Counted from the stretch's first letter, positions 11,906 through 63,529 are shown. The stretch: 64,000 bases of DNA from Pachysolen tannophilus NRRL Y-2460 (GCA_001661245.1 KV454012.1:2127063-2191062), one strand, 5' to 3'. Notes: a model not told the origin generated them from the sequence alone. Numbers and translations: made by a program.

Positions 11906-12239
11906 NNNNNNNNNNNNNNNNNNNNNNNNNNNNNNNNNNNNNNNNNNNNNNNNNNNNNNNNNNNNNNNNNNNNNNNNNNNNNNNNNNNNNNNNNNNNNNN
12001 NNNNNNNNNNNNNNNNNNNNNNNNNNNNNNNNNNNNNNNNNNNNNNNNNNNNNNNNNNNNNNNNNNNNNNNNNNNNNNNNNNNNNNNNNNNNNNNNNNNN
12101 NNNNNNNNNNNNNNNNNNNNNNNNNNNNNNNNNNNNNNNNNNNNNNNNNNNNNNNNNNNNNNNNNNNNNNNNNNNNNNNNNNNNNNNNNNNNNNNNNNNN
12201 NNNNNNNNNNNNNNNNNNNNNNNNNNNNNNNNNNNNNNN
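11906..12239. other. Assembly gap (N run)
   Basis: Run of N. Confidence 1.
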
Positions 12240-23656: not shown

Positions 23657-23915
23657 AAAAAACTTTTGATTAATTTAAAATGAATTGAAACAAAGGAAAA
23701 CTTTTTTGAGATCTCTTAAAAAACAAAAAAAAAAAAAAAAGAAACAGAAAGTTGGTTATGTTTCTAAGGAGTTGAGAACTTTGCCTCCTTCGTTTATGGC
23801 CATATGAGCTTTTAGCTTTTAGTCCCTTTTTTTTTATTATTATCATTATTATTAATGTCTTTTATTCTACTTTTTTTTTGTGGTTCGTAGTGTATAAATT
23901 TGAATTTGGTTATTA

Positions 23916-24357
23916 NNNNNNNNNNNNNNNNNNNNNNNNNNNNNNNNNNNNNNNNNNNNNNNNNNNNNNNNNNNNNNNNNNNNNNNNNNNNNNNNNNNNN
24001 NNNNNNNNNNNNNNNNNNNNNNNNNNNNNNNNNNNNNNNNNNNNNNNNNNNNNNNNNNNNNNNNNNNNNNNNNNNNNNNNNNNNNNNNNNNNNNNNNNNN
24101 NNNNNNNNNNNNNNNNNNNNNNNNNNNNNNNNNNNNNNNNNNNNNNNNNNNNNNNNNNNNNNNNNNNNNNNNNNNNNNNNNNNNNNNNNNNNNNNNNNNN
24201 NNNNNNNNNNNNNNNNNNNNNNNNNNNNNNNNNNNNNNNNNNNNNNNNNNNNNNNNNNNNNNNNNNNNNNNNNNNNNNNNNNNNNNNNNNNNNNNNNNNN
24301 NNNNNNNNNNNNNNNNNNNNNNNNNNNNNNNNNNNNNNNNNNNNNNNNNNNNNNNNN
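23916..24357. other. Assembly gap (N run)
   Basis: Run of N followed by a long poly-T. Confidence 1.
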
Positions 24358-24409
<52 letters not shown>

Positions 24410-24517
24410 CTTTTAATTTTAGTGAGCATTTGAATATAAAGAAATTATGGTCCACTAAATGATAATAATAATTATACGGTAAATAATTTAATTAATTAAT
24501 TAATTAATTAATTAGTA

Positions 24518-50118: not shown

Positions 50119-51807
50119 TTATTTCTTACTGTCAATAGTAATAGAAATCTTCTCAACAGACCCGCTACCCTCAATGTCGTCACTTAAGCCTGTATCACTG
50201 TCTAATTTGCTTATGGCAACACCGTCTTCCGTGTAAACTTCATCAACTTTAGTATCTGGCTGAATAGTAAAACCAGGGAAAATTAATTCCAACACTATTA
50301 AAGTTGTAGCACTAACAATAATACCCCAAGGATAAGACATTTTAAAGATTTTGTTCCATGCACCCCAATCCTTACCATCTGCTTCGGCGACTAAACCTGG
50401 CAAAGTGAAAGCAGTACCCATAATCCAAGCAACAGCTGCTCTCCAATCAAATCCGTGCCAGAACCAATAGATTGAAGAAGAATTACCAACGTATAAGTCT
50501 TGTAATAAAATTTTTCTTTTGTAAATGAAAAAATATTTAGCAATAATAATACCTGTTAAACCAGAACAGAAGCAGCCCCAACCATTACCAAGAATGATAA
50601 CAGCTGTAGCGTTTGCTTGTAATTTCCAAGGCCAACAAAGTAAACCAACAACGGCAACAATTAATGAAGCTCTCCTCATATTTAAATATTTTGGACATAA
50701 ACCAGCCAAATCCATACCTGTGGAAACAGAATTTAACAAAAGGTTAATAGCCAATTGCTGGCCAACAAATGCTAAACCACCAAAAAATACACCAGCTCTA
50801 GCAGCTTTTGAATTATTTTCGTAAGACTGAATAGCAGACAATACATTTAAAGGATTCCATACGGTTTCTCCAACAATATCGTTAACTGCAGAAGTAACTA
50901 AACAACCAATTAAAGAAGAATAAACAACAGCAATTGGAGCACCAATAAACTGAGCAGGAGCTGGGCCTCTCTTCGTTGTAGAATATCTTGCCCAATCAGA
51001 TTGTCCCAAGATACCAGTTCCAGCTGTACCAACGACACTAAAAATTGACATAACAACAGCCCATGCAACTTCAGCTTTTGTAGTCAACGTCGATGAATGT
51101 TCTGTTAACATAGCTCCAGCACCGCCTGCGGTCTTGATAGCCCATCCAAGAATTCCAAACATGGCACCAAATACTAGTACAAATGTAATTCTGAAAAAAG
51201 TTTGAATTTTTTCTGGAGGTATCATAATACATGGAATAAATAAAATCATATAGATCATTAATCCAACGAAATCAGCCGAAGTTATACCATTTTTATCATC
51301 AAAAGTATCCCATGTAGCATAACTTGGATTCATTGCAGCAATTACAACTCTCACTGCTTGTCCTCCATAATAAGCTTGAACACCAACCCAGACAATACCG
51401 GTACATAATCTTATGATAACTGGGAAATAAAAAGCAGGAAACTTACCTTTAAATCCACCTACACCCCAACAAAATCTTGAAATAACGGTAAACCCAATAT
51501 GATGATGAGAACCTATCCAACCCATAATAACTGCCATAAACCCATATATAATACCTGCAGCCACTGTGCAACCCAAGGCCTGTCTAACAGAAAGTCCGTA
51601 AGCAACGATAGTAGATCCAGTAGTCCAACCAGATATAGAGACACCTTCCACAATCCAGTAACTGAAATAACCCAAAGGAGTCCAAGTTCTACGTTCTGGT
51701 GGAATAGGAATCAAATCTCTATTGGTAAGCTTATCATTATCATAGAAAGACTGTTCATCTTTTGGAACTTCAAGTTTCTTTTTAAGTAATTCCCAAGAGA
51801 TCGTCAT
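50119..51807 (-). CDS. NCS1 nucleobase/allantoin/thiamine-type permease
   Basis: NRDLIPIPPERRTW...YFSYW, HIGF.V.SR..WG, SDWARY, P.Y.N.RR, PWKL; about 12 TM segments. Confidence 0.9.
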   Translation of the reverse strand: MTISWELLKKKLEVPKDEQSFYDNDKLTNRDLIPIPPERRTWTPLGYFSYWIVEGVSISGWTTGSTIVAYGLSVRQALGCTVAAGIIYGFMAVIMGWIGSHHHIGFTVISRFCWGVGGFKGKFPAFYFPVIIRLCTGIVWVGVQAYYGGQAVRVVIAAMNPSYATWDTFDDKNGITSADFVGLMIYMILFIPCIMIPPEKIQTFFRITFVLVFGAMFGILGWAIKTAGGAGAMLTEHSSTLTTKAEVAWAVVMSIFSVVGTAGTGILGQSDWARYSTTKRGPAPAQFIGAPIAVVYSSLIGCLVTSAVNDIVGETVWNPLNVLSAIQSYENNSKAARAGVFFGGLAFVGQQLAINLLLNSVSTGMDLAGLCPKYLNMRRASLIVAVVGLLCWPWKLQANATAVIILGNGWGCFCSGLTGIIIAKYFFIYKRKILLQDLYVGNSSSIYWFWHGFDWRAAVAWIMGTAFTLPGLVAEADGKDWGAWNKIFKMSYPWGIIVSATTLIVLELIFPGFTIQPDTKVDEVYTEDGVAISKLDSDTGLSDDIEGSGSVEKISITIDSKK

Positions 51808-52451
51808 ATTTATTTCCTTTTTTTGCGATTTCTTTTTTGAAGACCTCAACTTAAAATCTCAAACGATTTTAATTTTGATTGTGATTTTGATTCCAAATTT
51901 GACACTCGAAACATATGCTATAAGGCTAGATATATATATATATATATATAAGAAAATCTAATCTTTGATAATAACTTTGAATATGCTTGTAGTGTTTTTC
52001 ATTTCCGGAGTCTGCAGTATCTTATGCCCACAACTATTTTTTACTTGTTATAAGCTTAGAGATTTAGTATGTTTTCCTTTTGAAAAATCAACGGTGGAGA
52101 ACTTTTCAGTGAAAAATTATGATTTTTGGTGGGCTATCGAGCCGTTATCAAAAAAAAAATTATTATGTCCAAGATATACTGCTGTAATGTTGCTGATGAT
52201 AATAAAAGAAGGAAAATACCCCAGTTTCTCAACATTTTCACTTTTCATACAGTTGTTCATTTGATTATTTTCAATTCAAGATATTTGTAATTGAAGGATC
52301 TAAACAGGGATTAATATTAAAATTATGCTATAGATTAAGTACCGTATATTGAGTATTTAGTTATCGTAAAAATGTAAAATTGTAAAAATTTTGGAAGGGA
52401 CAAAAAGAGGACAAAAAGAAGAAAAAGAAAAAAAAATTTTTTTTGAGTCCC

Positions 52452-53483
52452 TTAATATGTTGCGTTTAATCTCATACTAAGATATTCTAAAGCGTTAATT
52501 GGCTCATATTTCTTTGGGTTTTCTTCAGAGTATGTTCCAGGTAAACAATCAATTGTCTTTGTTCTATCAGCGCTGATAAAGAATGGAATTGAGTATCTAA
52601 CTTTTGAGTATCCAGTTTCCGATATAATAGGTGGGGCTCTAACTCTATGTAAGGTAGATTTTAACAGGTTATTTGACCATCTCATAAGAAAATCACCAGT
52701 ATTTACTACGAGTGCACCGGGGACATAAGGAGCTGGAATGAAAACTCCTTTATGATATGGGTCTTCAACTTCTAAGCCTCCGCAACTATCTTGAAGTAAT
52801 AAAGTCATTGTACCGAAGTCTGTATGAGCAGCAATTCTTTCAGTAGAACCATTTCTTAAATCTTGTTCTTTTGTAGGTGGATAATGTAATAATCTAAGTT
52901 GATTTTCACTATCAATATGATAATTTAAGAAAAAATCTTCATTTAAGTCCATTCCAAGAGCAAGTGCTCTTAAAAAATATTTAGAAGTTAAAGTGGCTTT
53001 ATTATAATAATTTTGGCAACCCAGTTTAAAACCAGGAATATCTGTATCTTCTGGCCAAAAATTACAATAATATCCATCTTCTTTACCAACATCAAAAGAT
53101 TCTTTAACATCTGGATGTTTCCTCAAATTGGAAATCTCTTTTTCATCAAAAACCATTTGAACCACTTTTTCTTTACCAAGAGCTGACCAACCTCTATGAT
53201 GTGCACCATTTGGAGGATGAGGGCATTTAGATTTTTGTTCATCGGATAATTCAAAAAATTTCTTGGACCATTCAAAAATATCATCAATTTCTTTTTGCTC
53301 AATACCGTGATTAATAATATACATGAATCCAACTTCACGTAATACTTTTACCATTTGCTTACCAGTTTCTAATTTTTCTTCAGGTTTACCCGAAAAAAAA
53401 GGCGAAAAATCAATAATTGGGAGAGAAGAAGTCGGAGAAGTTGTTGTATCAACAACTTCAACTGTAGTGGTAACAGAGGACAT
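52452..53483 (-). CDS. 2-oxoglutarate/Fe(II) dioxygenase (IPNS / thymine-7-hydroxylase-like fold)
   Basis: LPIIDF, GFMYIINHGI, LRLLHYPP, HTD..H (STLHRV), RYS 2OG-binding motif. Confidence 0.92.
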   Translation of the reverse strand: MSSVTTTVEVVDTTTSPTSSLPIIDFSPFFSGKPEEKLETGKQMVKVLREVGFMYIINHGIEQKEIDDIFEWSKKFFELSDEQKSKCPHPPNGAHHRGWSALGKEKVVQMVFDEKEISNLRKHPDVKESFDVGKEDGYYCNFWPEDTDIPGFKLGCQNYYNKATLTSKYFLRALALGMDLNEDFFLNYHIDSENQLRLLHYPPTKEQDLRNGSTERIAAHTDFGTMTLLLQDSCGGLEVEDPYHKGVFIPAPYVPGALVVNTGDFLMRWSNNLLKSTLHRVRAPPIISETGYSKVRYSIPFFISADRTKTIDCLPGTYSEENPKKYEPINALEYLSMRLNATY

Positions 53484-53583
53484 ATTGGAAAACTACTTTA
53501 TTTGGAATATTACTCTACCTAGTAAGCTAACTTTTTCTTCTCTTCTGTTTTTGTTCTTTTTTGTTTTTGGGACTTCTGTAGAG

Positions 53584-53686
53584 CTTATCCGACTATATAT
53601 ATATATTTATGTTGAAGATCATCTTTACCCAAGCGTAGATAAGAAAAGGTGGGCACCTCTATTTTCTTGGTGGAGGATGTTTATCT
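53584..53686. promoter_or_regulatory. Dioxygenase promoter: GATA sites plus GGTGG(G/A) motifs
   Basis: CTTATC 53584, GATAAGAAAAGGTGGGCAC 53638-53656, TGGTGGAG 53668, TTATCT 53681. Confidence 0.6.
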
Positions 53687-53835
53687 TGCATATATTGTAT
53701 GCATGGTTATAAACGTTTGATTTCTTGACTATATTTAAAATCTGATCAAAATGATTAGAGTTATCATGTGATTTCATAAAATGTATGGGAATCAGTTTCT
53801 AAAAATTGAATTAAGGAACATGACATAGAATTTGC

Positions 53836-54705
53836 AGTTTAAGAAGATTATTACAACCTTATAAAGAAACACATAAAGAGTACCAGATGAATTGTTTCTC
53901 CCAGTATTCTAGATTTATTTCTTTACATGGGTTATTAAATATTTGCTATGATTTGAAATATAGAGGATTATTTGATTTAGGTATTTTAACCAAGAAAAGA
54001 TTATTTGACTTGGTTATTAGATTACAGCATGCATTTTTAAGTTGGAAAGATTATTTTGATAGGCATATCTCGATTACAAATAGATCTGAATGTGATGAAG
54101 TTTTAAACGACTATTCTGCATCTCCTATATTCTGGTCAAATTTAACAATTTTTAAAATTGCGTTAATTTCGTTGTATGTTGATACTTCTACAATATTGAA
54201 ATATTCATCAAATTTAAATGATCATAAACTTATCACAAAAATTCAAAATTGGACAAAATCGTCTGAGGGAGAATCATGCGTAATTGAAAGTTGTCGCTTT
54301 CTTATAATAGTCATAAATAATGTCGAAATAATCCATTCCGTTCCTCATGTTGCATATTGTACTTTTTTGGTATGTCTCATTCTTTGGTCTTTTGAAACAA
54401 ACAGGCAAATATCAGCTTTTAATTCTACAAATATGCTTACCCCATTAACACCAAGAAAATATTTTGATGCAGACAATAACTTATTAATTGAAACTGTAGG
54501 AAATGATGCAACAAATTACCTTTCTGGAATATTAGAAAACAACAATATCAATGTTGAAAATTTTGAAGAATACTGTACAAGACAACAGCAAGTGATTGCT
54601 TTAATCACTTATATTATTGGGATATTAAAAGAAAATTGTAGTTGGGAAAATATTGGTCCACGAATCGAAGTTTTAGAAAAGGTACTAAAAACTTATGATG
54701 AGTAA
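53836..54705 (+). pseudogene. C-terminal half of the C2H2/fungal-specific transcription factor, inverted relative to its N-half (first in-frame ATG 53887)
   Basis: Frame reads SLRRLLQPYK..CFSQYSRFISLHGLL..AF..WK..FD..PH.AYC.F...LILW, typical of the C-terminal part of such factors; no DNA-binding domain; stop-free from 53824. Confidence 0.65.
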
Positions 54706-54866
54706 ATATTTACAGTAGAGTATATATGTTTTCGTTTTTTCGTTTCTATTAAATTAACTAGTTTGATCTTATACAAGGTGGTAATATCACTATTTGTAGA
54801 ACCTTTGAAAAAAAAAAAAAAATTTTAAATCACTGTATCATTCCAAAGTCTCTATATCCTTTTTGC

Positions 54867-56553
54867 CTAATGAAAAATAAAAAAAGAAAAGAAAAAAAAA
54901 GAAAACCATAATTTAAGAAATAAAAAATTTGGCCATCTAGTTTCTATTTTGATACTAGATAATAATGGAGTATTTGAATTTGCATCATTTAGTTCAATAG
55001 ATGGTTTTTTTCTTGGATTTAAATTCTTAGGTTGTAAATCGTACTGTTCAAAAAACTCATTTAAATCACTTGCATTCCATACGTTATCTGTACAAGGTAG
55101 TTCCAAATTAATTTCAAAAATTGAAAGATGTTGATCAAGATTAAACAAAGCAGCATGCTGTGAATCACAAATATATGCAAAAAAAGCAGTTCTTTTACTT
55201 GTTTCATAAAGAATCCAGTCATTCCATGAACTTTTGTCGCTCACCAGAGGTTCAACCAAACCTTCTAAAAAACGTAAACTTTTCAATAAATTTATGTTTA
55301 AGCCATGGAAAAGTATGGATTTCTTTAATTGTAGGTCTGTTCCACAATATTTTCCAAAATAATTATTAAGTAACAAAGCTTGGAAAATACTTAATTCTAA
55401 ATTATCTTCAAAATTATTCACTTCATAAAGTAACAATTTTCTCAATGAATCATGAACTAATAATGAAATTTTATAATGACATGTATATTTACTGTATGCC
55501 ATTCCAATATTCAACATACTTACTAAAAGATAAATATTTGTCTTACTTGGGTCAAACGTTGGGAAATGGATAATTGGATAAATTGAATTGAATTCATTCC
55601 AATATAATTTTAAAAAATCGTCAAAGTCTTCAATTAATAAGGAATTTAAATCATCCAAGTTTAAAAGTTGTAATATTTGAAATCTAGTCTCTTCGCTTAA
55701 TAAGTTAAAATTATTCAAATTTGCTTGTTCTCGATTCATAGTAGATAATACTGGTGATAGACTTTCAAAAAATAATTTGTCAGGTTCAAATTCAAGGTTA
55801 TTTAAATTACCAAATAACCAACCATAATTATCGCGATATTCACTAAATGCATTGGGTGGGGTAGCTTTTTGATGAATACCAGAAGACTCAGTATCTATCC
55901 CTTGATTAAATAAATGATTTTGATTTTTCTCTTCCATCTTTGAATGTGATATATTTTCAAGTCCTAAAGTATCTGAGGCATTTTGCATTGGGTTAAATAT
56001 ATTCCGTAATGATAGATTTTTGGATGATGTATTAAGTGAACTATCTGTACCATAATCAAAAGATGAAGTTTCTTTAAATTCTTTTGACACAACTTTATTA
56101 CCAATTGATGAATTCAGTTCCAAATCATTCGTAATTTGGTCATTATATTTACATGGTATATCGGCTTTTCTCTTTTGATGAGATTTTGATTTGAAATGCC
56201 TAGAAAGGGAAGAAATGATACATTTATTCTTAGTAAATAATTCTCATTATTATAATCCAATAAATTGGAAAAATATAAATACTAACTTTATTAACAAATC
56301 TTTCCTTGCAAAACCCAGCTGACATTGACGGCAATTGAATGGTTTCACTTCGCTATCTAATATAAAAAGTTAGTAATTAAATTTCATCTAATCCATACAA
56401 AAATTTAAAATAAAATAAAATTGCATACGATTCCCTTTATGTCTCAATAAATAATCAACTCTAGCAAAAGATTTGTCGCAACCTGGATGTGAACATTTGA
56501 ATTTTTTCTCCTTTATCGAATTCTTCTTGATTAGATTATCTATTGAGTTGGAC

Positions 56554-56555
<2 letters not shown>
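54867..56555 (-). CDS. C2H2 zinc-finger plus Fungal_trans transcription factor, N-half; exons 56555-56429, 56356-56287, 56199-54867; truncated after WPNFLF
   Basis: Spliced fingers FKCSHPGCDKSFARVDYLLRHKGNH and FNCRQCQxGFARKDLLIKHFKSKSH; YW..F...YPIIH.PTF, W..YE..KRTAFFAYICDSQH, LPC...W; ends in an Phe-rich tail read from T-tracts. Confidence 0.8.
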
Positions 56556-57041: not shown

Positions 57042-58592
57042 TTAGTAGGAATATTTAAACTCCAAATTCTCCATATCTGTTAAGTCAGCAAATTCGGAAT
57101 TTGGAATTTTTTGATAACTGTCACCTAATTCCAGTATTTTCTTAGCCTTCTTTTTATTTCTTAATGAAATGATGGTCAACATCAAAGAAGGAGCAATTAA
57201 ACACAATGTGAAAGTAGATACCATAACTTTCTTTGCTGTTGGATAATTATCTTCACTTTCTGAACCTAAGAAAGTTTGTGGTCCAATCATATTACCAGCA
57301 CAGAATCCAATTAAAAATACAGAGTTTAACGTAATTTTTTTAGTATAACCAGCAACATTTGTTGAAATACAAGAAGCCATAGTTGCATAACTAGCAGTAG
57401 AAAAATAAGACAAATAGTAACCAACCATTTGAGCTCCTTTAGGAGAACTGAAAGCCAATAAACAAAGTCCTGTGAACATACAAGAATTTATGAAAAGACA
57501 CATTGCAAGTCTACTAGGAACAAATTTTTGTTGAATAAATGCAAACAATAATGGGAAAACAATATCAATTCCACTTCCAACCATGTTCATCAAAAGAGCA
57601 TTTCCAGTAGAGAATCCAAAATTATCTTTCAATAAGATTGATCCGAAATTACCAATACCTCCATTTGGTATACCATAACCAATCATATAGAAAAGGAAAA
57701 GATATGTATTAGGATCCATTAATGCTTCTTTAAATTGATACATCTTGAAATAATGATTTCCAAAACCTTGATTATTAATTCTGATTCTTTCAACAACATA
57801 AACTTTTTCCTTTTCATTCAAAAACCAAGCTTTAACTGGAACATCAGGAATATGCAAATATGAAACAACAGCAAAGAAAATAGTAATCACACCTGTAATT
57901 ATATATAAAAGTCTCCAAGATGCAATCGCATTACTACCTCCATGTTTATACAAGCCATAAGCAATTCCTGAACCTAACATTGTACCAAAACCTTCGAATC
58001 CCAACCAAACACCACATCTAACATATTGTTCAGATTTTTTGTACCATTGAGAAGTTAAAAGAATATAAGCTGGAGTCATAAAACTTTCAAATATCCCAAG
58101 CAATGTACGACAAGCAAGAAATGATGCTGCTGAATGACAGGCACCGTGACAACAAATAACAACTCCCCAAGCAAGAATAGCCAGAGCTAAAGTTTTCGAT
58201 AAGGGAAACCTTTGCAACAGCATGTTTGCCGGAAATTCAAAAATTAAAAAACCAAGATAGAAAGAACTCGCAACCCATGAATATTCGCTACTACTCATGT
58301 TCAAATCCGTTTGTAAACCCATAATAGAAGCATATGAATTAGTCGACTTATCCATAAGTTGAATAGACATCAATATCGACATAATTGGCATAATGTAGCA
58401 ATCAATTTTACGAACAAGTTTTCTTTCAAACTCTTCATCGATTTCGATTTCCGGATCCTCGACAGCATACTTGTAAGCTAAATCAGCTTTTTTTTCATTA
58501 AATTCAACAGTCGTTAAAGATACAACATTTGTAACTGCTGCATGCTTTTCTAAATCAATAGCGCTACTTCTGGAAACAGCAGATTCAACCAT
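57042..58592 (-). CDS. MFS anion:cation symporter (Dal5 allantoate permease family)
   Basis: LVRKID..IMP, DK....A, EFP.N..LQRFP, R..LG.FE, WY...EQ..R, SWR, NVAGYTKK, GN.IGPQ.F, DLTD.EN..F.Y. Confidence 0.92.
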   Translation of the reverse strand: MVESAVSRSSAIDLEKHAAVTNVVSLTTVEFNEKKADLAYKYAVEDPEIEIDEEFERKLVRKIDCYIMPIMSILMSIQLMDKSTNSYASIMGLQTDLNMSSSEYSWVASSFYLGFLIFEFPANMLLQRFPLSKTLALAILAWGVVICCHGACHSAASFLACRTLLGIFESFMTPAYILLTSQWYKKSEQYVRCGVWLGFEGFGTMLGSGIAYGLYKHGGSNAIASWRLLYIITGVITIFFAVVSYLHIPDVPVKAWFLNEKEKVYVVERIRINNQGFGNHYFKMYQFKEALMDPNTYLFLFYMIGYGIPNGGIGNFGSILLKDNFGFSTGNALLMNMVGSGIDIVFPLLFAFIQQKFVPSRLAMCLFINSCMFTGLCLLAFSSPKGAQMVGYYLSYFSTASYATMASCISTNVAGYTKKITLNSVFLIGFCAGNMIGPQTFLGSESEDNYPTAKKVMVSTFTLCLIAPSLMLTIISLRNKKKAKKILELGDSYQKIPNSEFADLTDMENLEFKYSY

Positions 58593-59167
58593 CCTAATAT
58601 TGCTTCAACTACTAGGTACTCTTGGAGTAGTGATGTTTTTTGATGTCGATCTTATTTTGAAAGTCATAAGCTTTATATACGTTTATGAAAACATATATCA
58701 ATAGATATGAGTATCTGTTTATCTATCTTTCTATCCGACGTAAAAAATAATCGTAGAGATTCCTCGATTTGGATCAAGAGAAAGCCAAGAAACTGTGGTG
58801 ATGTAAAATGTAAAGTGTAACCTAAATTCATATCGATAAAGTTTCCTTTTTGGGACCTATCAGCAATATTTTTGGCCGATAAATCTTTTTGACTCTGAAA
58901 AATTTTTTAGTGATAGCGATGCGTCGTATCAGTTTCCTCTTTGGAGCTACAATGCATAATATTGCATATTTTGTTGATGATGTTGATTCATTTGAAAAAT
59001 TGAACCCTACAATAACTACAATAACATATGGTTCGACTTGAAAAATGGCCTATATGACTAACGTTCTAAGCAAATATATAACCTTTCCATTTATTCTCAG
59101 AACTTCTTTTTTTTTTTTCTCTTTTTTTCTTTCTTTTTGCTTTACCAAAAAAAAAAAAAAAGCAATT

Positions 59168-60883
59168 ATGTTGAGATTGATATTGAATGCAAGCGGAGCA
59201 AAATCGCTAGGCAAATCTAAAGTTTCCAAGTTTCTAGAAATTGGTTTTCAAGGATCTAGGAATACTATGAGAAAATATCATTCTGATAGTAACTATAATT
59301 TGAGATTGATATCAGAGAATAAGTCGAAATACTCTAGAATCTTGTACTATTTTCTGGCAGCAGCGTTAGCTCTCGGAACAAACCAGTATTTTGAAAATTC
59401 ACATGTTTCTTGTGAAAATGAAAAAAGCATCAATGTATCTGAGCTTGTAAAGCACAACACAAAAGACAATTTATGGGTTGCAGTGAATGGAAAAGTTTAT
59501 GATTTAACCGAATTCCTGCAGAAACATCCTGGTGGATCAGCTGCCATTTTGGAATTTGCAGGTAGAGATGCATCGAATGCATTTAATCAAATACATAGAA
59601 AAGATTTGATCCCGTTTGTGTTGCTGGAGGAAAAATTTTTGGGACACTTGGTAGGCAAGTTACCTGAAGAGGAAGTTGAACTCTCAGAAGAAGAGATTTT
59701 AAGACTTAAAAACATTAGAAACAAACCACCGCTTCATAAAATATTCAGTATTACAGATATGGAATATGTTGCTAAACATGTGTTACCTAAAAGTACTTAC
59801 AATTATTTTGCAACGGGTTCAGAAGATGAATTTACTTTGAGAGAAGGCCATTACGCTTACTCAAGAGTTTATTTTCGTCCAAGAATTTTATGCGATGTCC
59901 GTGAAGTTGATTTATCAACAACAATGTTAGGAACAAAAGTAGCTATACCAATTTATTTTTCTGCTACCGGTGGACAAGGAAGAGCACACCCGGAAGCAGA
60001 AAAAATAATCACTCGTGTTGCTAAGAAACATGGAATGGTACAAATGATCCCCTTTCTTTCGAAATGGCCAGTAGAAGAAATCGTGGCAGAAGCTGATCCT
60101 AATCAGGATCAATGGTTTCAACTTCATTTTAATTCTCTTGAAACGTTTAAAAAGGCACCAGAAATAATTAAAAAAATAAATTCTTTACCAAATATTAAAG
60201 CATTAATGCTTAATGTTGATTGTCCATGTTCTCCTATTAGGGAGAAAGATATCAGAACAAGAGCGGAAGCTACAGGTGCCGATGTAGAGCAGTTAGCGTC
60301 AATATCTGACCCAAACAACGTTTATGCAACATTAACGTGGGAAGACATAGCAAACTTCAGAAAAATGACTGATTTGCCAATTGTTTTGAAAGGAGTCCAG
60401 AGAACTGAAGATGTTTTAAAAGCAGCAGAGCTAGGATATAACGGTGTTATTCTTTCCAATACAGGTGGTAGACTGTTGGATTTTTCACAACCTACTTTAG
60501 AAGTCTTAGCTGAGACGATGCCAGAATTGAGAAAGCAACCATATTACAATAAGGATAAGTTTCAAGTTTACATTGACGGAGGTATTAGAAGATCAACAGA
60601 CGTTGTAAAAGCACTATGTTTAGGTGCTACAGGAGTTGGAATTGGAAGGCCGTTTTTGTATTCTATGTCTTCTTATGGTGAAGATGGTGTTAACAAATTA
60701 ATTGAGATTTTAAAAGTTGGCTTATCAAAGGACATGAAGCTCTTAGGTGCAAAAAATGTCGATGAATTAGACGAGAGTTTTTTGAATTTGAAGGATCTCT
60801 ATAATAGAGGAAAAGCTCAGGATAAATTATACGATGCACTATATGATTCCCTTCCTTTCCCAAAATTTGAAGAAGATACCTAA
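59168..60883 (+). CDS. Flavocytochrome b2-like alpha-hydroxy acid dehydrogenase paralogue with altered catalytic residues
   Basis: Bipartite mitochondrial presequence, b5 domain (HPGG, second His kept), FMN domain FRPRIL, KGVQ, DGGIRR.TDV.KAL.LGA..VG.GRPFLY; SNHGGR is SNTGGR. Confidence 0.88.
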   Translation: MLRLILNASGAKSLGKSKVSKFLEIGFQGSRNTMRKYHSDSNYNLRLISENKSKYSRILYYFLAAALALGTNQYFENSHVSCENEKSINVSELVKHNTKDNLWVAVNGKVYDLTEFLQKHPGGSAAILEFAGRDASNAFNQIHRKDLIPFVLLEEKFLGHLVGKLPEEEVELSEEEILRLKNIRNKPPLHKIFSITDMEYVAKHVLPKSTYNYFATGSEDEFTLREGHYAYSRVYFRPRILCDVREVDLSTTMLGTKVAIPIYFSATGGQGRAHPEAEKIITRVAKKHGMVQMIPFLSKWPVEEIVAEADPNQDQWFQLHFNSLETFKKAPEIIKKINSLPNIKALMLNVDCPCSPIREKDIRTRAEATGADVEQLASISDPNNVYATLTWEDIANFRKMTDLPIVLKGVQRTEDVLKAAELGYNGVILSNTGGRLLDFSQPTLEVLAETMPELRKQPYYNKDKFQVYIDGGIRRSTDVVKALCLGATGVGIGRPFLYSMSSYGEDGVNKLIEILKVGLSKDMKLLGAKNVDELDESFLNLKDLYNRGKAQDKLYDALYDSLPFPKFEEDT

Positions 60884-61083: not shown

Positions 61084-63272
61084 TTATACATATGCAGGTA
61101 ATACTAGTCCATCGGCTTCTGCAATTTCGCACCAATTAACATATGTCATGCCATTTTGGTTTAATGTCCAAACTTTTTGTGTCAACTTAATGATAGTCAA
61201 AAATTTTTCACTTTTTCTAATTTCATATATGTCGTAAAGATTTTCAACAAACCATTTCCTGTAATTATCACCAATCAAATCACATCCAAAAACAAATATT
61301 GGCAAAATCAAGTAAAAATTAAAATCTTCATTCTGTTCGTCGAGATAACTTTTGAATATTTCAGTTAGAATTGGTAACGATCGCCTTACCAGTAGTATCG
61401 TCGCCGTTGATGACGAATTATTATTGTAAATTAACTGAGATATAAAGAGATAACATACTTCTTTTGAGAATAAAAACAAATTCTCAATAGGTGTGAAGCT
61501 CAGTTCTGTATCAGATTCAGCTGACTCTGTTGAAATAGTAACTAAATCTAGCTGCTGCTCAAGATCCTTAGCTTCTGATAAAACTCTCAGAAGACTGTCC
61601 TCATGCATTACACCGTAGTCATTAATGTTGGACGATATTTCACTGCCATTTCCACATTTTGCTACTCGTAGCAAATTAGATAAATGTGATATTCTGCCAT
61701 AAATTTTGAATAGTCTTTTCCAGTTTTTGTAAGCTAAACTATCATGTTCCTGCACTGATATTTCGTATATATATTTGAATTCATCTGCAGTTAAAAAATA
61801 CCGATCATTTACCAACGAAGTACTATAATTAAAATTTGACAAGTAATAATAGCTGAAAACTCGAGAAAAAAAGGATCCCGTAGAAGTCTTTGTTAAATTC
61901 TCTACACCTCCTCTTAATGATATCATTTTTCCCATTAAGTTTACGAGTCCAAACCAATATTTAGCAGTATTTTCAGCTTTGAGGTTTTCAATATATAACA
62001 ATAGCAAAACAATAGACATGGTATGATCACAGCAAACAGCAGACCTAAAGCTCAATCTGTGATTTAATTCAACTATTATTTCATTATATAAATTCTCAAT
62101 TATGTTGGATGCGTCCTTTAGCTTGCTTTCAGAAGATTTGCTGCTGTGCAAATTCCAAGCAGACCATAATAATAAAGTTTTGAAAACAGTAACATTACTG
62201 AAAGCTAACGGAAGATAAACGGTCAAGATCAATGTTGTTTTCTGTTTTGCAAGGAAACTATTTGAGCACGACGAAAAATACAATTTATTGGTTTCATTGG
62301 GGAAATTTTCACAAAAATTGAAAAATAACAACTCAATGATATCTGAAGTTAAGTATGGGGGTAGATTCCCTAATTCCAATAAAAATTGGCGTTCGTTTTC
62401 ATTTTTTGTTGGAAGAGAATCATTGAAATTAATGAAGGAAGGAGCTTCAAGGTATAAAATATTTTTTAATGATTCAGCATTTACTTCAACAAGCTGAAGA
62501 TTTTTATCATTAGTAGCATCTTTTGGTTTCTTCTTGCGACTAATGACTGACCCTCCATTATATTGTAAAAGATAAAAGTAATGGTTATCATCCAAATCAT
62601 TTCCAGGAACTTCATCTCCTTCAAAGCAGTTTAACAACATTTTTTTCAGCACTTCTTTCAGCTTTACTTTATCATAGCCATATATGATTTTACTATTCTC
62701 GTCAATCAATGTGTCCTCATTTATTATTGGTATTTCTTGCATAGTTTCATATAAAATATTTTTCTGATCTGCATTGACCACAATTTGCTTTTTTTCATAT
62801 AATTTAGTTAATCCAACAGAACCTATGGTTGATGTATACGTAGATCCAGCACCTGAGCTTTGATGGTTACATTTAAAATAAGTTTTAACAACTTCAGCAG
62901 CGATGACTAAGCTCTGATTACTGGTAAGATATCTAATTTCAATCGATAATCCACCAGTGACTGTTTTAAGAAACGGTTCTTCAAAAGCATCTTTTTTTCC
63001 AGGGAGCTTTCTGGTCTTCTTTTGATCCAGTCCATCAAAGTGAATAATTTTAATATCCGGTATCTCACAGGGAATATTCTTTTTTGAACAATATGAACAG
63101 CTGGTGGAGCCTCTGGTAATATCACATTTTTTACTGTAAAGATGAATTTTCATTTTAAGATTAGTACACCTATCATTGAAACCCGTATGAACTTGATCTA
63201 TACATACTTTCGAGACTTGCACAGCAAACATCCGCGTCGCTGAATACTTCCTTTTCTGATCCTCTTCAACAT
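61084..63272 (-). CDS. Zn(II)2Cys6 transcription factor; 2 exons (63272-63208, 63133-61084)
   Basis: Spliced cluster GCL(CTG)CKSRN/KKCD....SCSYC..KNIPC; intron GTATGT..TACTAAT..CAG; Fungal_trans_2-like C-terminus (LPIFVFGC, R.W, VW, W). The ORF-track start lies in the wrong frame and reads through the intron. Confidence 0.85.
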
Positions 63273-63529
63273 CCTATGGCATTAAAGTGTATTTCTTGTT
63301 TTCTGATAATACCAACCAACCATCTTGGATTAATCTGCATTATTTTTATATTTTGCCTTCATCGGCAAAGGAAAATCACAATGTCCCAAATAGGCAACTT
63401 TTAAGATAAAGAAAAGATATCATGAATTCTTACAATCGTTGAGAGTATAAAAGAGTTTACTAGGAATATGATTAACTTTTACTCATAATATTCCATCTAA
63501 AAATAATTAGAAACTAGGGAAGTAAAGTT

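What the first reader, a model, noticed from the sequence alone, without database searches (positions are those of the whole stretch)
53824..56555. Cluster transcription factor split into two convergent, stop-free halves by an apparent ~1.1 kb inversion
Seen: the minus-strand C2H2/Fungal_trans gene stops making sense right after ...IETRWPNFLF (about 54918) and runs into a T-tract tail. A plus-strand frame starting at about 53836 (SLRRLLQPYK...CFSQYSRFISLHGLL...) supplies the missing C-terminal ~290 aa. Flipping about 53834-54918 would give a continuous ...WPNFL(F/C)SLRRLLQPY... protein. Both breakpoint regions carry TTTAAGAA (53838 and 54912) with a palindromic TTAA core, although an exact exchange at TTAA would shift the frame. 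Inference: this is a recent regulator-inactivating inversion, a reversible DNA switch controlling the cluster, a split factor whose C-half (ATG 53887) is driven divergently from the dioxygenase promoter, or a misassembly. That homologues read contiguously across this junction is my recollection of the family, not a search result.
Basis: partly seen in the sequence, partly recalled or inferred. Interest (0 to 1): 0.8.

Follow-up and report, generated by a model that had tools for sequence, protein, structure and literature searches.

The report
Assembly-only inversion splitting a yeast regulator
A transcription-factor gene of the yeast Pachysolen tannophilus looks cut in two by a 1.1-kb inversion, but contigs built from the sequencing reads show it in one piece, so the split is most likely an error in the deposited genome.

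Summary
The minus-strand C2H2/Fungal_trans gene loses homology after ...WPNFLF. The plus-strand frame from 53836 supplies the next 289 residues. In full-length relatives the two halves abut with no gap or overlap, for example P0002 residues 440|441 and P0003 448|449.

The window is Pachysolen tannophilus NRRL Y-2460, which reads CUG as Ala. The public annotation carries the split as two proteins of 489 aa and 272 aa.

Contigs built from reads in 4 of 4 laid runs place 53835-54918 in the opposite orientation. Three runs are from one sample and one is from an independent 2023 study. In these contigs 53835 joins directly to 54919, and the reverse complement of 54918 follows 53834. No contig supports the window's junctions.

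Flipping that segment gives one intact gene of 782 aa. No inverted repeats flank the segment, and the shared TTTAAGAA is at chance level.

Verdict: the inversion belongs to the deposited assembly, not to the bulk genome, so it is most likely an assembly or finishing artefact. A regulator-inactivating inversion, a DNA switch and a split factor are not supported. Contigs cannot exclude a rare inverted subpopulation. Interest is low and lies mainly in curation.

The parts
53835..54918 (.). Segment of 1,084 bp that lies in the opposite orientation in the window (deposited assembly) compared with read-derived contigs.
   Evidence: X3 record 3 (7,152 nt) lays 53000-53834 (+), then 125 nt, then 54797-53835 (-), then directly 54919-56000 (+). 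X1, X4 and X5 contigs show the same 53835|54919 joint. Their loose ends after 53834 read as the reverse complement of 54918 downward.
53836..54705 (+). C-terminal 289 codons plus stop of the transcription factor, as placed in the window. The base at 53835 completes the preceding Phe codon.
   Evidence: It aligns to residues ~440 to the end of full-length relatives (E 2e-45 to 9e-55). There is no Pfam hit.
54919..56199 (-). Exon 3, N-terminal part: linker plus the Fungal_trans (PF04082) domain, ending ...WPNFL(F).
   Evidence: (PF04082, E 6.8e-27), and the mapping of P0001.
56287..56356 (-). Exon 2, carrying the second C2H2 finger. Borders were read by eye from the sequence around the P0001 mapping.
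56429..56555 (-). Exon 1 with the ATG at 56555 and the first C2H2 finger.
54841..54864 (-). Spurious last exon (KKDIETLE, with the stop after it) of the public 489-aa model PACTADRAFT_2034. It lies inside the inverted segment.
   Evidence: It shows that the public annotation was made on the inverted arrangement.
53887..54705 (+). Deposited stand-alone 272-aa protein model, which is the C-half read from an internal Met.
   Evidence: an exact-sequence look-up finds it in NCBI/UniRef on the same 2,193,613-bp record as P0001.
54798..54918 (.). A-rich low-complexity tract, which is the true gene's 3' flank. Its length differs between the window and the contigs.
   Evidence: The window has 121 nt and the contigs 125 nt. 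One run is T10 in the loose ends of X1, X4 and X5 but 9 in the window.
52452..53483 (-). Neighbouring 2OG-Fe(II) dioxygenase, thymine-dioxygenase-like.
   Evidence: PF14226 and PF03171. (best solved relative is thymine dioxygenase 5c3p, E 3.2e-68).
57042..58604 (-). Neighbouring MFS transporter.
   Evidence: PF07690, E 6.5e-38.
50119..51858 (-). Neighbouring NCS1-type permease.
   Evidence: (PF02133, E 1.5e-76).

Best explanation
The window comes from the deposited reference assembly of Pachysolen tannophilus NRRL Y-2460. In that assembly the 1,084-bp segment 53835-54918 is written in the wrong orientation. In the DNA that was actually sequenced the segment lies the other way. The locus is then one intact, three-exon, minus-strand gene of 782 codons. 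It encodes a transcription factor with two N-terminal C2H2 fingers, a Fungal_trans domain and a conserved C-terminal region.

The split into two convergent halves, and the two public gene models derived from it, are artefacts of assembly or finishing. They are not a biological inversion.

Shown: the halves abut in homologues, the contigs carry the contiguous orientation, and no repeats flank the segment. Inferred: the cause is an assembly or finishing error, perhaps linked to the homopolymer-rich tract at one end of the segment. Also inferred: the factor regulates the neighbouring permease, dioxygenase and MFS genes.
For: Organism and assembly:
- P0001 (PACTADRAFT_2034, P. tannophilus NRRL Y-2460) is 99% identical to the N-half under table 1.
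- the differences are CUG=Ala sites, and P0001 maps exactly under table 26. Its last exon lies on the minus strand inside the inverted segment, so the public annotation was made on this same arrangement.
- the C-half is deposited as a separate 272-aa protein on the same record.

Homologues:
- the halves match adjacent, non-overlapping parts of P0002 (440|441) and P0003 (448|449).
- the profile search lists 23 relatives, of which 11 are 732-826 aa long, among them proteins of Priceomyces carsonii, Kuraishia capsulata and Brettanomyces nanus.
- in an alignment of 10 relatives chosen, the junction lies inside the most conserved motif.

Reads:
- contigs of 4 of 4 laid runs show 53835 joined directly to 54919 in opposite orientation. 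X1, X3 and X4 are one sample and X5 is another study from 2023. They match with 0 other letters over the parts laid.
- the sequence after 53834 is the reverse complement of 54918 downward. X3 has a single 7,152-nt contig through the whole locus. No piece is colinear with either window junction.
- all 5 holders share the same 0.92 of sampled words. This is compatible with the junction words being absent from all of them, but it is only a weak hint.

Sequence:
- flipping the segment gives an uninterrupted frame, and the CDS is 2,349 nt (782 aa).
- no inverted repeat has arms at the two breakpoints.
- both halves are free of stops, as expected if nothing is broken in the organism.
- the window also differs from all contigs in homopolymer lengths within 54798-54918. 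This points to reference errors at this spot.
Against: - The evidence comes from contigs, not raw reads. Contigs drop rare variants, so a minor population with the window's orientation cannot be excluded (caveat).
- The stretch 54798-54918 was skipped as repetitive. The right-hand window junction was therefore judged from the direct 53835|54919 joint, not from reads laid across it.
- I could not establish that X1-X4 are the reads the assembly was built from.
- The breakpoints are flush, with no N gap. The nearest N runs start at 11906, 22154 and 23916. I can name no specific assembler failure that produces this.
- No contiguous Pachysolen protein was found among longer proteins in the collection (1 hit, from another organism).
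- No RNA run was available.
Confidence: 0.85

Rival explanations
1. The inversion is real but unrepresentative. It arose in the particular culture, DNA preparation or cloned fragment that decided the reference consensus at this spot. It would be a recent regulator-truncating mutation present in a minority of cells or in one clone.
For: The deposited assembly has clean, flush junctions without N. Both halves are stop-free, which fits a very recent event. Contigs cannot show rare variants (caveat).
Against: In 3 of 3 laid runs of the sample that best holds the window, and in 1 of 1 independent run, the contigs pass straight through the contiguous junctions. The only contig breaks lie inside the homopolymer tract. 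The same spot also has homopolymer-length discrepancies typical of reference error.
Confidence: 0.1
2. The segment is a reversible DNA switch. It flips between an ON state (full-length factor) and an OFF state (truncated factor plus a separate C-half) to control the neighbouring catabolic genes.
For: P. tannophilus has one known invertible region, the MAT locus. It is induced to invert by nitrogen depletion (passages of PMC6692504). Two orientations of this segment exist in public data: the assembly and the contigs.
Against: The MAT system uses 2-kb inverted repeats. Here no inverted repeat has arms at the breakpoints. The shared TTTAAGAA is in direct orientation and at chance frequency. Only one orientation is seen in the contigs of 4 of 4 runs, with no branch at the junctions. 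The breakpoint cuts a codon inside an invariant motif.
Confidence: 0.03
3. This is a naturally split factor. The N-half and C-half are separate, convergently arranged genes, and the C-half is expressed from ATG 53887 using the dioxygenase-side promoter.
For: Both are deposited as separate gene models. Both frames are open.
Against: The contigs show that the DNA is contiguous. The 11 relatives of 732-826 aa are single chains covering both halves. The 489-aa model needs a spurious 8-codon exon. The split falls inside an invariant motif.
Confidence: 0.02

Closest known systems
Small-scale misorientation or misjoin errors in draft and improved-draft genome assemblies
   Same: A segment is inverted in the deposited sequence and its junctions are not supported by read-derived contigs. 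It co-occurs with homopolymer-length discrepancies. It produced truncated and split gene models.
   Different: The junctions are flush to the base, and there is no N gap or flanking repeat that would explain the error. The cause remains unknown.
HxnR of Aspergillus nidulans, the nicotinate-catabolism regulator with two C2H2 fingers plus PF04082, and its paralogues Klf1 and AN6733 (PMC5746545, passages)
   Same: The architecture is the same: two N-terminal C2H2 fingers and then a PF04082 domain. The neighbours have the same Pfam types as hxnY (PF14226 and PF03171) and hxnP (PF07690). Bokor et al. 2021 state that P. tannophilus has an hxn cluster and that the clusters of Saccharomycotina always include hxnR (PMC8478523, passages).
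   Different: Orthology was not tested because no HxnR sequence was at hand. No gene of hxnT, hxnV, hxnX, hxnW or hxnM type lies in the window. Strong relatives occur in Lipomyces arxii and Dipodascopsis tothii, whereas the paper says Lipomyces has no hxn genes other than hxnM and hxnN. The paper's supplementary figures S5B and S6, which would show the Pachysolen cluster, could not be read.
Flip/flop mating-type inversion of P. tannophilus: an 8-kb MAT region between 2-kb inverted repeats (PMC6692504, passages)
   Same: It is in the same organism, and it is a DNA segment found in two orientations.
   Different: No flanking inverted repeats, only 1.1 kb long, a breakpoint inside a codon, and one orientation only in read contigs.

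Membership tests
Assembly artefact (misoriented segment) | The junctions of the deposited arrangement are not supported by the reads, while the alternative junctions are. | tested here: met
   In 4 of 4 runs the contigs join 53835 to 54919, and 53834 to the reverse complement of 54918. No contig piece is colinear across either window junction. This is contig-level evidence only.
Assembly artefact (misoriented segment) | Correcting the arrangement restores a gene colinear with its homologues. | tested here: met
   The result is a 782-aa product, the halves abut at P0002 440|441, and the junction lies inside an invariant motif.
Assembly artefact (misoriented segment) | An identifiable technical cause, such as a gap, a repeat or a scaffold join at the breakpoints. 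| tested here: not met
   There is no N run and no repeat at 53835 or 54918. The only nearby feature is a homopolymer-rich tract, whose first run begins 17 nt inside the right end.
Invertible DNA switch (repeat-mediated or site-specific) | Inverted repeats or recombinase sites flanking the invertible segment. | tested here: not met
   none of the 25 longest inverted pairs has arms at the two breakpoints. TTTAAGAA is in direct orientation, with 13 copies observed against 18.5 expected.
Invertible DNA switch (repeat-mediated or site-specific) | Both orientations coexist in the DNA of one strain. | tested here: inconclusive
   only one orientation appears in the contigs of 4 runs, but contigs drop rare variants. 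Raw reads were not available.
C2H2 + Fungal_trans (PF04082) fungal transcription factors | A PF04082 domain. | tested here: met
   E 6.8e-27, 94.6 bits against a cutoff of 23.
C2H2 + Fungal_trans (PF04082) fungal transcription factors | N-terminal C2H2 zinc fingers. | tested here: met
   P0001 residues ~19-72 carry two Cys2His2 patterns, read by eye. PF00096 is precomputed for relatives; profile positions 4-61 match Zif268, WT1 and KLF fingers (E down to 4.5e-24). P0001 itself was not scanned for PF00096.
HxnR orthologues (nicotinate regulon) | More than 30% identity to A. nidulans HxnR outside the finger domain. This is the criterion in the S6 legend of the preprint 10.1101/2021.04.19.440407. 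| not tested
HxnR orthologues (nicotinate regulon) | Clustered with hxn enzyme genes (hxnT, hxnV, hxnX, hxnW, hxnM). | tested here: not met
   Within the 64-kb window only a dioxygenase of hxnY type and an MFS gene of hxnP type are adjacent. No Oxidored_FMN, FAD-monooxygenase, SDR or imide-hydrolase gene was found among the 28 frames of 150 or more codons that were scanned, out of 38 listed. The 10 left out overlap longer frames or N runs.

The most novel reading that the evidence does not exclude
The window's orientation exists as real DNA in a small fraction of P. tannophilus cells. It would be a repeat-independent, low-frequency inversion that truncates a cluster regulator. It would have been caught by chance in the reference, and it might respond to growth conditions as the species' MAT flip/flop does.
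Probability: 0.05. Interest if true: 0.6.

Novelty: not a real feature. Interest (0 to 1): 0.12.

Why it matters
The value is mainly in curation. The reference genome of P. tannophilus NRRL Y-2460, the model for CUG=Ala decoding, carries a 1,084-bp misoriented segment. That error turns one 782-aa transcription factor into two deposited proteins of 489 aa and 272 aa. One of them ends in an invented exon.

Anyone using these models inherits the error, whether for orthology, for domain statistics or for studies of catabolic clusters such as the nicotinate (hxn) regulon reported for this species. The case also shows that a gene split by an inversion in a single assembly should be checked against reads before any biological reading. 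If the inversion were real it would be a recent regulator knockout or a switch, but the read-derived contigs argue against that.

Tried and rejected
- Whole-genome search: no genome is held for this window.
- Earlier notes of the scan: none exist for this genome.
- RNA evidence: no RNA holder was listed among the 7 runs, so nothing can be said on expression.
Two scans of metagenome contigs then found no relative (with alignment A2, with P0026). Whether relatives sit beside a dioxygenase or an MFS gene is untested.
- Search for an already deposited contiguous Pachysolen protein among longer proteins: 1 hit, from another organism at 34% identity. This is weak evidence, since the tool warns that long proteins crowd out relatives.
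- Protein Atlas on the C-half: it returned only unnamed ascomycete clusters, plus one cluster with PF04082 in 53% of members. All structural rows were below TM 0.5. Nothing useful came of it.
- Literature: the search for 'Pachysolen tannophilus' with 'misassembly' gave 5 papers, 4 listed. I read passages of one (PMC6692504), and its mentions of misassembly concern other species. I found no report of this error. The search for 'Pachysolen tannophilus' with 'gapResolution' gave 0 papers. The genome paper was not held under the DOI I recalled, so the assembly method is unknown to me. The supplements of PMC8478523 could not be read.
- TTTAAGAA or TTAA as a recombination signature: rejected, because the motif is at chance frequency and in direct orientation.
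- The poly-T and poly-A inverted pairs I1, I2, I4 and I7 (53532-53568 against 54869-54905): rejected as the cause. The left arm lies about 270 bp outside the left breakpoint, and the sequence is low-complexity.

Full report
**Where the window comes from**

The N-terminal half of the flagged gene is 99% identical under the standard code to the NCBI protein PACTADRAFT_2034 of Pachysolen tannophilus NRRL Y-2460 (P0001, 489 aa). Under table 26 (CUG = Ala) P0001 maps exactly onto the window. The window has 28.6% G+C. It contains 777 N in runs that start at 11906, 22154 and 23916, so it is a gapped scaffold.

**Check of the observation**

The minus-strand stop-free frame 54867-56243 carries a Fungal_trans domain (PF04082, E 6.8e-27). 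A search of the protein collection found two full-length relatives from unnamed assemblies, P0002 (746 aa) and P0003 (770 aa).

- The N-half aligns to P0002 residues 137-440 and to P0003 up to residue 448. Both alignments end at WPSFLF or WPSFLW.
- The plus-strand frame 53824-54705 has no Pfam hit. From its Ser codon at 53836 it aligns to P0002 from residue 441 onward (E 2e-45) and to P0003 residues 449-770, the end of that protein (E 9e-55).
- In a joint alignment the N-half ends at column 568 and the C-half starts at column 569.
- A profile search listed 23 relatives. Of these, 11 are single chains of 732-826 aa, including proteins from Priceomyces carsonii, Kuraishia capsulata and Brettanomyces nanus.
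- I aligned 10 relatives, picked for being full length or nearly so. In that alignment the junction sits inside the most conserved stretch of the family. W443, P444 and L447 on one side are invariant, and so are R451, R452, L453, M454 and Q455 on the other.

The shared TTTAAGAA (53838 and 54912) is present but not meaningful. There are 13 copies in the window against 18.5 expected, and the two copies are in direct orientation. No inverted repeat has its arms at the two breakpoints. The only long inverted pairs near the segment are poly-T and poly-A low-complexity tracts, and the left arm lies about 270 bp outside the left breakpoint.

**What the reads say**

Five public runs hold the stretch, each with 0.92 of the sampled words. 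Four of them are from one sample (X1-X4, 2010-2016). One is from another study (X5, 2023). I laid the contigs of X1, X3, X4 and X5 on 53000-56000.

- All four show the same picture, with no other letters in the parts laid.
- In X3 a single 7,152-nt contig runs 53000-53834 forward. It then has 125 letters that the tool skipped as repetitive, then 54797 down to 53835 in reverse, then directly 54919-56000 forward.
- In X1, X4 and X5 a contig of about 2,666 nt joins 53835 to 54919 in the same way.
- In those three runs the contig covering 53000-53834 continues with letters that I read as the reverse complement of 54918 downward, by comparison.
- No piece is colinear with the window across 53834|53835.
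- The contig breaks in X1, X4 and X5 fall inside the homopolymer tract around 54804-54837, not at the inversion junctions.

The sequenced DNA therefore carries the segment 53835-54918 in the orientation opposite to the window. In that orientation the gene is continuous.

The 31-letter words that span such a joint can only come from reads. No repeat at the junction could create the joint in a de Bruijn graph. The same joint appears in two independent studies.

**The corrected gene**

Flipping 53835-54918 in a script gives a 731-codon stop-free frame. It reads ...WPNFLF followed directly by SLRRLLQPYK.... I combined this with the first two exons mapped from P0001 and read the splice borders by eye.

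| Part | Window coordinates |
|---|---|
| Exon 1 | 56555-56429 |
| Exon 2 | 56356-56287 |
| Exon 3, first part | 56199-54919 |
| Exon 3, second part | 53835-54705 |

The CDS is 2,349 nt, or 782 aa. This is in the range of its relatives. In the corrected arrangement four consecutive genes all lie on the minus strand: the NCS1 permease, the dioxygenase, the factor and the MFS transporter. The factor's stop codon lies 564 bp from the dioxygenase ATG.

**How the error reached the databases**

P0001 ends with eight residues (KKDIETLE) encoded at 54864-54841 on the minus strand. That is inside the inverted segment, and the model reaches it through a short invented intron. The exon can follow the N-half only in the window's arrangement, so the public annotation was made on the inverted sequence. 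The C-half, read from the internal ATG at 53887, is also a deposited protein of 272 aa on the same 2,193,613-bp record. One gene is therefore represented by two wrong models.

**Why I call it an artefact, and what remains open**

Four results favour an error in the reference:
- The contiguous form is the only one seen in 4 of 4 laid runs.
- Both halves are free of stops.
- No repeats flank the segment.
- The same spot shows further reference-versus-read discrepancies. The contigs have 125 nt where the window has 121 nt. One T run is 10 long in X1, X4 and X5 but 9 in the window.

Four points count against full certainty:
- Contigs drop rare variants.
- The junctions are flush and without N, so I cannot name the technical cause.

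My estimates are as follows.

| Explanation | Probability |
|---|---|
| The inversion is not a feature of the bulk genome | 0.85 |
| A real but unrepresentative molecule or subclone | 0.10 |
| A reversible switch | 0.03 |
| A natural split gene | 0.02 |

The species does have a genuine invertible region at MAT. That system uses 2-kb inverted repeats (PMC6692504, passages), and nothing comparable is present here.

**What the gene is**

It encodes a fungal transcription factor with three parts:
- Two N-terminal C2H2 fingers (read by eye in P0001; PF00096 is precomputed in relatives; the profile matches Zif268 and WT1 fingers).
- A PF04082 domain.
- A conserved C-terminal region of about 290 aa without a Pfam family.

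This is the architecture of A. nidulans HxnR and its paralogues Klf1 and AN6733 (PMC5746545, passages). The neighbours are:
- A 2OG-Fe(II) dioxygenase, whose best solved relative is thymine dioxygenase 5c3p (E 3.2e-68 over nearly its full length).
- An MFS transporter.
- An NCS1 permease.

Bokor et al. 2021 report an hxn (nicotinate) cluster in P. tannophilus. They say such yeast clusters always include hxnR (PMC8478523, passages). HxnY and HxnP have the same Pfam types as the neighbours here.

However, the window holds no gene of hxnT, V, X, W or M type. Strong relatives of the factor occur in Lipomycetaceae, where the paper finds no hxnR. I also had no HxnR sequence to compare. Whether this is the hxnR of that paper, or a paralogue controlling a pyrimidine- or nicotinate-like catabolic mini-cluster, stays open. 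The paper's supplementary figures, which could settle it, were not readable. That the factor regulates its neighbours is an inference from adjacency only.

**Verdict**

This is an orientation error in a public reference assembly that splits an intact regulator gene. It is worth a correction to the record, but it is not a new biological feature.

Noticed in passing
window 52452-53483 (-), with 50119-51858 (-) and 57042-58604 (-): The dioxygenase next to the factor is closest, among solved structures, to fungal thymine dioxygenase (5c3p, E 3.2e-68). An NCS1 permease and an MFS transporter flank the dioxygenase-factor pair. With the corrected factor gene, four tandem minus-strand genes form a possible pyrimidine- or nicotinate-type catabolic mini-cluster.
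   Followed up: partly
window 54798-54918: Read-derived contigs have 125 nt where the window has 121 nt. One homopolymer is 10 long in the contigs of X1, X4 and X5 but 9 in the window. These are probably homopolymer-length errors in the reference, right beside the misoriented junction.
   Followed up: partly
window 53887-54705 (+) and 54841-56555 (-): The public annotation holds two protein models for this one gene. One is a 489-aa protein that ends in an invented 8-codon exon. The other is a 272-aa protein starting at an internal Met.
   Followed up: yes
window 11906, 22154, 23916: Three runs of N, 777 N in all, mark scaffold gaps. The six-frame pile of ORFs at 23776-24491 is probably caused by one of them.
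   Followed up: no
window 54919-56199 (-): The CTG codons in the N-half are read as Ala in the deposited protein. This accounts for the 99% identity under the standard code and fits the CUG=Ala code of this species. The C-half has no CTG codon, since its translations under tables 1 and 26 are the same.
   Followed up: partly
window 59042-60883 (+) and 61084-63273 (-): A cytochrome b2-type FMN dehydrogenase (Cyt-b5 plus FMN_dh) and a Fungal_trans_2 factor (PF11951) lie just beyond the MFS gene. Whether they belong to the same regulon is unknown.
   Followed up: no
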